Shown: positions 33,595 through 33,694 of the stretch, one piece after another | How positions within the stretch are numbered: position 1 is the first letter of the stretch | Layout: each line of letters starts with the position of its first letter | Source of the DNA: Rhodoferax sp. | Lineage (GTDB): Bacteria > Pseudomonadota > Gammaproteobacteria > Burkholderiales > Burkholderiaceae_C | Reading direction: 5' to 3' | DNA length: 64,000 nt | Assembly (NCBI GenBank): GCA_031365665.1 | Contig: JANLYO010000195.1 | Location: forward strand, 5,026 to 69,025 | Notes under the pieces: generated by a model | Told to the model about the DNA's origin: nothing | Database searches by the model: none | The model's input: the letters and a program-made list of their open reading frames with translations, nothing else | Position numbers and translations under genes: made by a program

Positions 33595-33694
33595 TATATA
33601 GCAAACTATCTATATAATGCGTGGCCTAGAGCCTTAAATTTTATAAATATCTGCGCAGCAGCCAAAAATCACACCAATAAACCCCAAAATGGGT
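33595..33694 (+). repeat. AT-rich dispersed repeat, copy D (long form)
   Basis: TATATAGCAAACTATCTATATAATGCGTGGCCTAGAGCC...ATCTGCGCAGCAGCCAAAAAT...ACCCCAAAATGGGT. Roughly two thirds to three quarters of positions match copy F by eye. Confidence 0.75.

What the first reader, a model, noticed from the sequence alone, without database searches (positions are those of the whole stretch)
33595..33694. Family of AT-rich ~50-100-bp dispersed repeats in a GC-rich genome (type copy D)
Nearly every strongly AT-rich spacer in the window contains the same sequence family. The long copies are C (29269-29369), D (33595-33694) and F (50117-50216). They align collinearly as TATATAGCAA, N~11, AAT(A/G)CG(T/C)GG(C/A)CTAGAG, AATTTTT(C)ATAAA(A/T)ATCTGCGCA, and a terminal small hairpin ACCC-N5/6-GGGT. 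Shorter or degenerate copies are A (1278-1322), B (17174-17204), G (52329-52380) and H (54950-54987). Possible relics lie at 20687-20717, 57421-57470 and ~60585-60605. I see no terminal inverted repeats, no obvious target duplications and no associated transposase. The element does not resemble any REP, BIME, Correia or ERIC type that I know. Candidate roles are a non-autonomous mobile element, a binding platform for a nucleoid-associated or xenogeneic-silencing protein, or a small RNA.
Basis: seen in the sequence. Interest (0 to 1): 0.7.

Follow-up and report, generated by a model that had tools for sequence, protein, structure and literature searches.

The report
AT-rich 125-bp dispersed intergenic repeat family
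The AT-rich spacers do share a real, previously undescribed ~125-bp repeat that sits mainly just after stop codons in a small group of freshwater Comamonadaceae; it looks like an old REP/MITE-like dispersed DNA element, not an RNA gene.

Summary
The repeat family is real. C, D and F align far better than shuffled or unrelated AT-rich spacers (z = 9 to 24). A model built only from copies in other genomes recovers D, C, F, B and H at E = 9e-18 to 1e-6.

The unit is a directional, length-constant module of about 125 bp and 31-35% GC in a 60% GC window. It has five blocks:
- palindrome IR1, TTGCTAtaaT..TATAGCAA;
- CTAT;
- AATAnaCGtGaCCTAGAG at a fixed spacing;
- ATTTTTCttnAAAT(CTGCGCA);
- palindrome IR2, CAATnAnACCCCAtTTTGGGTATGATTG.

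It has no terminal inverted repeats and no target duplications. It matches nothing in Rfam. Its pairs show no covariation, and its folding is not consistently more stable than shuffles.

Copies abut stop codons, mostly between convergent genes. They lie next to sites of gene gain and loss, and nearly all point the same way. They are old: paralogs are 45-68% identical, and several positions are shared by relatives with about 80-93% protein identity.

Some claims failed. Copy A and the three "relics" are not supported. Only 6 to 8 of 18 AT-rich spacers carry the family.

My best reading is an ancient, trans-mobilised, non-autonomous repeat of a new family. Some copies may have been co-opted as promoters or 3'-end modules. 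The way it spread is inferred, not shown.

The parts
33584..33705 (+). Copy D, full length (122 bp, 35% GC), between the gpx terminator hairpin and the stop codon of the convergent WYL-regulator gene (stop at 33706-33708)
   Evidence: (E = 9e-18 with the non-window model). Its ortholog is L002 10659-10786, 72% identical.
33584..33609 (+). D: IR1 region. The left arm is degenerate (CTACTCCA), the right arm is TATATAGCAA, followed by the CTAT block
33616..33632 (+). D: conserved block AATGCGTGGCCTAGAGC, at a fixed distance from TATAGCAA (14 nt to the RCG)
33636..33657 (+). D: middle block AAATTTTATAAATATCTGCGCA
33675..33701 (+). D: IR2 palindrome CAATAAACCCCAAAATGGGTACGATTG.
   Evidence: (I7)
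29258..29382 (+). Copy C, full length (125 bp, 31% GC). It starts 2 nt after the thiolase stop codon, with alr convergent on the 3' side.
   Evidence: (E = 2e-17)
50106..50226 (+). Copy F, full length (121 bp, 31% GC). It starts 1 nt after the comM/yifB stop codon and lies upstream of the co-oriented MFS gene.
   Evidence: (E = 2e-12). The orthologous 5' modules are L011 6528-6596, L012 8375-8430 and L013 ~13131-13178.
17159..17249 (+). Copy B: the 5' module plus a degenerate remainder. It lies between the vapBC/defence-island side and the IS1595-family element.
   Evidence: E = 8e-8
54940..54987 (+). Copy H: 5' module only, abutting the start codon and RBS of the minus-strand DUF488 gene
   Evidence: E = 1e-6; relatives carry a GC-enriched, degenerate version at the same place
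52324..52361 (+). Copy G: 5' module only, between the cupin gene start and the acyl-CoA synthetase stop
   Evidence: E = 0.07. Orthologous modules are L011 5069-5115 and L012 6925-6962.
40420..40473 (-). Copy E: a 5' module lying in frame inside the 3' part of glcE, within the AT-rich stretch 40349-40546. It is translated as ..LFITNYSEDTRPNYQ..
   Evidence: I2; E = 0.07. The same insert occurs in L003 21195-21272 (E = 2e-5) and in L002 ~17509-17552. It is absent from L008.
1275..1322 (+). Claimed copy A: a possible decayed copy, which needs a 6-nt deletion to fit. It is not statistically supported.
   Evidence: E = 1.6; E = 4.7

Best explanation
D is one copy of a lineage-restricted family of ~125-bp, AT-rich, directional interspersed repeats. 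The host is a Rhodoferax-related Comamonadaceae genome.

The unit has two sequence-conserved palindromes, IR1 at the 5' end and IR2 at the 3' end. Between them lie three conserved blocks at fixed spacing.

I propose that it spread long ago as a non-autonomous element. A trans-acting DNA enzyme that recognises the palindromes would have copied it. The lack of terminal inverted repeats and target duplications, together with the fixed polarity, fits a hairpin/ssDNA (HUH-type) or site-specific-recombinase substrate better than a DDE-type MITE.

Copies survived where they do least harm. These places are directly after stop codons, mostly between convergent genes, and at the edges of gene gain/loss hot spots. 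Today most copies are old and inherited vertically.

The 5' module (~55 nt) is the longest-lived part. It carries an extended -10-like promoter on the + strand, TGnTAnnnT. Copies upstream of co-oriented genes (F, H) may therefore have been co-opted as promoters. IR2 may help form 3' ends at convergent junctions.

Shown: the family, its anatomy, location, age and orthology, and the absence of RNA-type covariation.
Inferred: how it dispersed, and any present function.
For: Reality and anatomy:
- Shuffle controls give z = 9 to 24.
- The HMM built without window sequences recovers the copies.
- Twelve full-length copies from eight assembly or metagenome sources align over about 125 columns almost without gaps.

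Not an RNA:
- There is no Rfam match.
- RNAalifold finds 0 compensatory pairs.
- 78% of cells pair, against 79% in shuffles.
- Fold z-scores for D are -0.7 and +0.2.

Dispersal:
- Copies lie at non-homologous junctions in the window and in L001, L002, L003, L007, L010-L013 and L015.
- The site downstream of alr is filled in the window, L002 and L010, and empty in L003-6 and L008-9.
- L008/9 have no copy in 21 kb.
- In L002 two direct copies flank an inserted amidohydrolase + cobW pair, where the window has only C at the same thiolase-stop junction.
- One copy lies in frame inside glcE in three lineages.

Context:
- Elements start 0-5 nt after stop codons.
- In L007 and L001 the flanking ORFs end inside the element.

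Polarity:
- About 9 independent intergenic copies point one way, and 2 weak ones point the other way.
- Partial copies always keep the 5' module and never IR2 alone.

Age:
- Paralogs are 45-68% identical, and the orthologs W_D and L2_3 are 73% identical.

Promoter-like feature:
- TG is present in 75% of copies, and the mean -10 match is 4.3 of 6.
Against:
- There are no young, near-identical copies, so mobility is historical at best.
- No conserved target sequence flanks the element. Only a loose TTGAA-like motif sits before IR1 in some copies.
- IR1 and IR2 differ in sequence, unlike the left and right hairpins of IS200/IS605 elements.
- Orthologous modules evolve at roughly the synonymous rate: about 60% identity against 0.57-0.63 identity at four-fold sites. 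The ends of D are 78-90% identical against 0.55-0.75. Evidence for a host function is therefore only modest.
- The orientation bias is suggestive only (about 9 versus 2).
Confidence: 0.5

Rival explanations
1. Host cis-acting module. The blocks are binding sites for a sequence-specific DNA-binding protein, or act as a 3'-end/insulator signal. IR2 would work as a bidirectional terminator and the hairpins would protect mRNA 3' ends, as proposed for REP/BIME. The family would be kept by selection, not by mobility.
For: - Conservation is in sequence, not in pairing, and the palindromes have fixed spacing.
- Copies persist, and stay AT-rich, at orthologous sites across relatives with four-fold-site identity of only 0.55-0.63.
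- The elements stay attached to the conserved gene on their 3' side (alr, the WYL regulator, the acyl-CoA synthetase, the MFS gene), while genes on the 5' side vary.
- Full copies sit between convergent stop codons.
- In C and L2_2, IR2 is flanked by A-rich and T-rich runs.
Against: - The terminator scan does not flag IR2, and the T-tract is not conserved.
- D lies next to a separate canonical GC-rich terminator at 33516-33544.
- The L008/9 relatives do without the element at the same junctions.
- Module divergence is close to the synonymous rate.
- About one copy per 8 kb is too dense for an ordinary regulon.
Confidence: 0.2
2. Recombination site. The element would be an att/res/dif-like site. 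IR2 would be the core, with ~11-bp inverted arms around a 5-6-bp AT-rich spacer. The 5' module would be an accessory, directional part. Small gene cassettes would enter and leave through it.
For: - The architecture of IR2 fits such a core.
- In L002 two direct copies flank a two-gene insert, while the window has one in-register copy at the same outer junction.
- At seven sites the variable genes lie immediately 5' of an element: C, D, the L003 site, F, G, the tryptophan-dioxygenase (TDO) site, and B with its 7.5-kb defence island.
- Orientation is nearly uniform.
Against: - Active direct-repeat sites every ~8 kb would delete core genes.
- No recombinase gene lies next to any copy.
- The copies are only 45-68% identical.
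- W_C resembles L2_2 throughout, so it is not a clear hybrid.
- In L019-21 the panE-bcr hot spot holds a different island and no element. Hot spots therefore do not need the element.
- Most variable sites carry a single copy.
Confidence: 0.1
3. Multicopy small-RNA gene. An extended -10 promoter in IR1 would drive a ~100-nt RNA that ends at the IR2 hairpin.
For: - TGnTAnnnT is the most consistent promoter-like feature, and it sits on the + strand.
- The unit length is constant.
- A hairpin lies at the 3' end.
- Copies between convergent genes have no mRNA of their own to serve.
Against: - There is no Rfam match.
- There is no covariation and no conserved structure apart from the two palindromes.
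- Fold z-scores are ordinary for D and F.
- No U-tract follows IR2 in most copies.
- The middle of the unit diverges fastest.
- The density is far above that of known sRNA families.
- One copy is translated inside glcE.
Confidence: 0.1
4. Chance resemblance among AT-rich promoter or terminator spacers, with no real family.
For: AT-rich spacers in GC-rich genomes share composition and TATA-like words. Some claimed members (A and the three relics) do fail the tests.
Against: - Shuffle and other-spacer controls exclude chance.
- The pattern expectation is 0.00 against 4 hits.
- The independent HMM gives E-values down to 9e-18.
- The same unit occurs in other genomes.
Confidence: 0.01

Closest known systems
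REP/BIME and REPIN elements (my own knowledge)
   Same: High-density intergenic repeats containing palindromes. They sit at the 3' ends of genes and between convergent genes, and they have no transposase of their own.
   Different: REPs are 20-40 nt, GC-rich, carry a 5' GTAG, and often occur as inverted doublets. This unit is 125 bp and 31-35% GC. It is directional, has two different palindromes and three further conserved blocks, and forms no inverted doublets.
ERIC/IRU of enterobacteria (~127 bp; my own knowledge)
   Same: Nearly the same length. Intergenic, with full and partial forms, and positions conserved between related species.
   Different: ERIC is one long imperfect palindrome and is not AT-rich relative to its host. 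Here only two short local palindromes are found and there is no overall dyad symmetry. There is no sequence similarity.
Correia/NEMIS, RUP and other classical MITEs (my own knowledge)
   Same: Non-coding repeats of 100-150 bp. They can carry outward promoters and lie close to genes.
   Different: Those have terminal inverted repeats and target-site duplications (TA for Correia). Neither is present here.
IS200/IS605-derived palindrome-associated elements (HUH/ssDNA transposition; my own knowledge)
   Same: No terminal inverted repeats, no target duplication, a palindrome near each end, and strand polarity.
   Different: No conserved target or cleavage tetranucleotide was found. IR1 and IR2 are unrelated in sequence and lie at the very ends. 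No TnpA could be looked for.
Integron attC sites such as the ~123-126-bp VCRs (my own knowledge)
   Same: Similar length. One copy lies at the 3' side of variable genes, all in one orientation, and direct copies flank a cassette-like insert in L002.
   Different: There are no R''/R' core sites (RYYYAAC/GTTRRRY) and no global dyad symmetry. Sequence, not structure, is conserved. The copies are scattered among core genes, not arranged in an array.
BRE, the Betaproteobacterial repeat element (PMC3110155)
   Same: A small repeat reported in Comamonadaceae (Polaromonas, Rhodoferax, Delftia). It is mostly intergenic, and some copies lie inside ORFs.
   Different: BRE is ~90 bp, about 69% GC and often tandem. 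This family is AT-rich, about 125 bp and never tandem.
Rickettsia palindromic elements (RPE; my own knowledge)
   Same: A repeat copy inserted in frame and translated within a protein-coding gene, as with copy E in glcE.
   Different: RPEs are mostly intragenic and belong to a different lineage with a different sequence. Here the intragenic copy is the exception.

Membership tests
Classical MITE (DDE-type) | Terminal inverted repeats | tested here: not met
   The 5' end (TTGCTATA..) and the 3' end (..GGGTATGATTG) are not complementary. The repeat finder reports only internal palindromes.
Classical MITE (DDE-type) | Target-site duplication flanking each copy | tested here: not met
   The flanks of 16 left ends and 11 right ends show no direct duplication.
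REP/REPIN | Short GC-rich palindrome with a 5' GTAG, often in inverted doublets | tested here: not met
   The unit is 125 bp and 31-35% GC, and copies occur singly and are directional.
REP/REPIN | A RAYT (TnpA_REP) gene in the genome | not testable with these tools
   Only the 64-kb window is available. The window's own contig could not be retrieved.
ERIC/IRU | Whole unit forms one long imperfect palindrome | tested here: not met
   RNAalifold on both strands pairs only IR1 and IR2 locally.
IS200/IS605-type non-autonomous element | Subterminal hairpins, no terminal inverted repeats, no target duplication | tested here: met
   IR1 and IR2 lie at the ends, and there are no terminal inverted repeats or duplications.
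IS200/IS605-type non-autonomous element | Conserved 4-5-nt target immediately 5' of the left end; related left and right hairpins | tested here: not met
   Only a loose TTGAA-like motif is present in some copies. IR1 and IR2 are unrelated in sequence.
IS200/IS605-type non-autonomous element | Insertion polarity tied to the replication direction | tested here: inconclusive
   About 9 copies point one way and 2 the other. The leading strand cannot be assigned, because the GC skew is flat.
Integron attC | R''/L''..L'/R' inverted core sites (RYYYAAC...GTTRRRY) with global dyad symmetry | tested here: not met
   The ends lack these motifs and there is no global symmetry.
Structured non-coding RNA (any Rfam family) | Match to a covariance model, or covarying base pairs | tested here: not met
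   There are no hits at the gathering threshold or at E <= 10. There are 0 compensatory pairs, and pairing equals the shuffle level.
Intrinsic terminator | GC-rich stem followed by a T-tract | tested here: inconclusive
   IR2 has 3-4 G-C pairs. A T-run follows it only in C and L2_2. The scan does not flag it.
BRE (PMC3110155) | ~90-bp GC-rich unit, often tandem | tested here: not met
   The composition and organisation are the opposite.

The most novel reading that the evidence does not exclude
The element could be the cis site of an undescribed, orientation-locked DNA transaction. IR2 would be a recombinase or HUH-nuclease core, and the 5' module a directional accessory arm. The system would insert small gene cassettes and defence islands immediately 5' of the element. 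That would explain four observations: the variable genes lie 5' of an element at seven sites; two direct copies flank a two-gene insert in L002; the orientation is nearly uniform; and there are no terminal inverted repeats or target duplications.
Probability: 0.12. Interest if true: 0.7.

Novelty: new member of a known kind. Interest (0 to 1): 0.4.

Why it matters
Small dispersed repeats shape bacterial genomes. They can supply promoters, 3'-end hairpins and recombination substrates, and they serve as typing markers.

This family has not been described before. It is confined to a narrow group of uncultured freshwater Comamonadaceae. It is AT-rich in a GC-rich genome, which is unusual for this kind of repeat, and it is directional.

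It sits exactly where gene content changes between close relatives. One copy is translated inside a conserved enzyme gene, glcE.

If a cognate enzyme or binding protein exists, the family offers a clean system for asking how such repeats spread without inverted ends. If none exists, it remains a useful marker of intergenic "safe havens" and of synteny breakpoints in these genomes.

Tried and rejected
- Collection scans with the strict core pattern gave 1 hit in genome contigs (L001) and 0 in metagenome contigs. A full-length pattern gave 1 metagenome hit (L007). A viral scan gave 1 hit that is unrelated coding sequence. The family is therefore rare outside this clade.
- blastn of D against plasmids and of C against phages found nothing relevant.
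- The window's own contig (70,403 bp, P0001) could not be fetched. No genome-wide census and no transposase search were possible.
- No organism names came back from the protein cluster look-up.
- I compared the blocks by eye with known promoter consensuses: sigma-54, sigma-32 (CTTGAAA..CCCCAT, wrong spacing), ECF and PvdS types, and the T7 promoter (TAATACG..TATAG). I also compared them with Fur, Zur, FNR, IHF, OxyR and dif sites. I rejected all of them on spacing or sequence.
- A -35/-10 pair (TTGCTA, 17 nt, TATnnA) is less consistent than the extended -10 reading.
- A local hairpin around CTAGAG was examined copy by copy and is not conserved.
- The chimera test for W_C against L2_1 and L2_2 gave no clear hybrid.
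- The IS1595-family ends do not match the element.
- The literature search found only BRE, which is a different element.
- The idea that the element defines the integration hot spots is weakened by L019-21. There the same panE-bcr hot spot holds another island and no element.

Full report
**Observation**

The window is 59.8% GC. At 29258-29382 (C), 33584-33705 (D) and 50106-50226 (F) lie three collinear AT-rich units of 121-125 bp and 31-35% GC.

Their pairwise local alignment scores are 24, 37 and 44. Dinucleotide shuffles give mean 9.5, sd 1.5 and maximum 16. Eight other AT-rich spacers of the same window give at most 12. The core pattern TATAGCAA-N14-RCGYGRMCTAGAG has 3 exact matches and 1 near match, against 0.00 expected.

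An HMM built only from copies found in other genomes recovers:
- D at E = 9e-18, C at 2e-17, F at 2e-12, B at 8e-8 and H at 1e-6;
- E and G at about 0.07;
- A at 1.6;
- none of the three claimed relics.

Of 18 AT-rich segments in the window, 6 contain a member, or 8 with A and the segment next to H. The family is therefore real, but it does not fill "nearly every" AT-rich spacer.

**Organism and relatives**

The LplT protein of the window has a 100% match on a 70,403-bp NCBI contig that could not be retrieved. Relatives at 93%, 89% and 87% identity are unnamed MAG or metagenome contigs. The nearest named relatives, at about 80%, are Rhodoferax sp. MAGs. L001 is a lake "uncultured beta proteobacterium" MAG.

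Loci from relatives gave nine further full-length copies:
- L002 2703-2830, 5482-5609 and 10659-10786;
- L003 14309-14438;
- L007 2322-2446(-);
- L010 8608-8731;
- L012 1560-1684(-);
- L013 3570-3696(-);
- L015 1731-1848(-).

They also gave several partial copies. Strict collection-wide scans found almost nothing else. Plasmid and phage collections hold nothing similar. The family is narrow.

**Anatomy**

Twelve full copies align over about 125 columns almost without gaps. The blocks are:
1. IR1, tTGCTAtaaT-TATATAGCAa, whose core palindrome is GCTA..TAGC;
2. CTAT;
3. AATAnaCGtGaCCTAGAG, at a fixed distance (14 nt from TATAGCAA to the RCG);
4. ATTTTTCttnAAAT, often followed by CTGCGCA;
5. IR2, CAATnA(A/T)ACCCCAtTTTGGGTATGATTG, with ~11-bp arms around a 5-6-nt AT-rich centre.

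The distance from block 3 to IR2 is 50-52 nt in six copies, counted by hand on the sequences. There are no terminal inverted repeats, no target duplications and no conserved flank, apart from a loose TTGAA before IR1 in some copies.

Partial copies (B, G, H, E, L001, and the orthologs of F and G) always keep the 5' module. An IR2-only copy was never seen.

**Not a structured RNA**

- Rfam gives nothing at the gathering score or at E <= 10.
- RNAalifold on either strand pairs only IR1 and IR2, with no compensatory change.
- With the two palindromes imposed on 12 copies, 78.2% of cells pair, against 79.3% after shuffling. The covariation score is 0.092 against 0.100. The palindromes are therefore conserved as sequence, not as pairing.
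- Fold z-scores are -0.7/+0.2 for D, -0.5/-1.2 for F, and -2.2/-2.0 for C, whose palindromes are perfect.

The most consistent promoter-like feature is an extended -10 (TGnTAnnnT) in the left arm of IR1 on the + strand. TG is present in 75% of 16 copies, and the mean hexamer match is 4.3 of 6.

**Context**

Full copies begin 0-5 nt after the stop codon of a co-oriented gene:
- thiolase in the window and in L002;
- comM;
- cobW.

Most end next to the stop codon of a convergent gene (alr, the WYL regulator, Fe-ADH). In L007 and L001 the flanking ORFs terminate inside the element. D also has a canonical GC-rich hairpin (33516-33544) between gpx and the element.

About nine independent intergenic copies share one orientation, although genes lie on both strands. 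Two weak copies (E, and L013 9697-9732) point the other way. This bias is only suggestive. The leading strand cannot be assigned from the flat GC skew.

**Age and inheritance**

Several positions are orthologous between relatives:
- D corresponds to L002 10659-10786, with 72% identity overall, 78-90% at the ends and about 50% in the middle. Four-fold-site identity in the neighbouring genes is 0.55-0.75.
- F corresponds to modules in L011, L012, L013 and L015.
- G corresponds to modules in L011 and L012.
- E corresponds to inserts in L003 and L002.

In the F orthologs the 5' module is still about 60% identical (hand count on the sequences), while the rest of the spacer cannot be aligned. Four-fold sites are 0.57-0.63 identical. 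This is modest evidence of constraint, although the copies remain AT-rich in every lineage.

Paralogs are only 45-68% identical, and no young copies were seen.

The site at the 3' end of alr is filled in the window, L002 and L010. It is empty in L003-6 and L008-9. L008/9 show no copy in 21 kb.

**Association with gene-content change**

At every examined site the variable genes lie directly 5' of the element, and the gene on the 3' side is usually constant.

| Site | Variable genes on the 5' side |
|---|---|
| C | nothing, HxlR, or amidohydrolase + cobW between two direct copies in L002 |
| D | OsmC present or absent |
| L003 | an extra AMP-binding gene |
| F | a 133-aa gene in L011; GST-AHSA1-MarR in L015 |
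| G | a cupin gene in the window |
| Tryptophan-dioxygenase (TDO) site | 0, 1 or 3 genes in L012, L015 and L013 |
| B | a 7.5-kb low-GC island (Dcm methylase, HATPase, Z1, DUF4420) plus vapBC |

However, the same panE-bcr hot spot in L019-21 carries a different island (CHAT-AAA16-TPR) and no element. The simplest reading is that elements and new genes both accumulate at permissive junctions. It is less likely that the element directs integration.

W_C resembles L2_2 throughout and is not a clear hybrid of the two L002 copies.

**Interpretation**

The data establish a new, lineage-restricted family of small dispersed intergenic repeats. Its wide scatter over non-homologous junctions, the subtype similarity across genomes, the filled and empty sites, and the in-frame copy in glcE all require a duplicative spread at some time. 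The lack of inverted ends and target duplications, together with the fixed polarity, argues against a DDE-type MITE. It leaves a hairpin/ssDNA (HUH-type) or recombinase-type mechanism as the best guess. That mechanism is inferred, not shown, and the copies seen are old.

Alternatives remain open:
- a present host role, as a promoter at F and H, or as a 3'-end or insulator module at convergent junctions;
- a recombination-site role.

**Comparison with known families**

The element fails the defining tests of classical MITEs, REP/REPIN, ERIC, Correia, attC and BRE (PMC3110155). It meets only the generic features of IS200/IS605-type derivatives. It is best filed as a new member of the broad class of bacterial interspersed intergenic repeats. 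Its unusual features are AT-richness in a GC-rich host, constant length and polarity.

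Noticed in passing
window 40349-40546 (glcE, minus strand; ORF 40306-41511): A ~200-bp stretch of 13-43% GC lies in frame inside the 3' part of glcE. It contains a copy of the repeat's 5' module, translated as ..SLFITNYSEDTRPNYQ... 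The same insert is present in L002 and partly in L003. L008 has a GC-rich segment of similar length there.
   Followed up: partly
window 9667-15856 (minus strand), GC 48-54%: A low-GC island encodes DUF4420 (PD-(D/E)XK), a Z1-domain protein, an HATPase_c_3 protein and a C5 cytosine methylase. This looks like a restriction-like defence cluster. It is followed by a PIN-domain vapC (16319-16804).
   Followed up: partly
window 17252-18335: An IS1595-family (ISXO2-like) insertion sequence with 40-bp terminal inverted repeats that are 95% complementary. Its transposase ORF is 17294-18229(-). It sits directly beside repeat copy B and upstream of a Bcr/CflA-type MFS gene.
   Followed up: partly
window ~9.5-18.4 kb versus L019-L021 240-6000: The junction between a panE/ApbA gene and the bcr MFS gene is an integration hot spot. 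The window holds the methylase island, vapBC and the IS there. A relative holds a CHAT-AAA_16-TPR protein (1108-1231 aa) and a 268-aa gene instead.
   Followed up: partly
window 60360-60455 (-): An SAH riboswitch (RF01057, 55 bits) lies directly upstream of a 955-aa B12-dependent methionine synthase gene (57481-60348, minus strand).
   Followed up: partly
window 60610-62989 (+), GC 47-52%: A BanI-type type II restriction enzyme gene is followed by a C5 cytosine methylase gene. Together they form a second low-GC restriction-modification island.
   Followed up: partly
window 7043-7981 and 8603-9548; also 1353-2378: Two tandem paralogous ketopantoate-reductase (PanE/ApbA) genes are 80-91% identical at the DNA level and 1.56 kb apart. 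A third, more distant paralog lies at 1353-2378.
   Followed up: no
L013 ~13040-13110 (minus strand of the locus) and L011 ~6460-6530: Downstream of the F-site module, relatives carry other long palindromes just before the MFS start codon. L013 has CAACCCATTTGTTAA..TTAACAAATGGGTTG and L011 has GCCTACAAATTAAC..GTTAATTG..TGTAGGC. These may be operators, or remodelled versions of IR2.
   Followed up: no
L001 5300-5770: A ~470-bp GC-rich stretch without a long ORF lies upstream of the L001 repeat copy. I did not examine it for an RNA gene.
   Followed up: no
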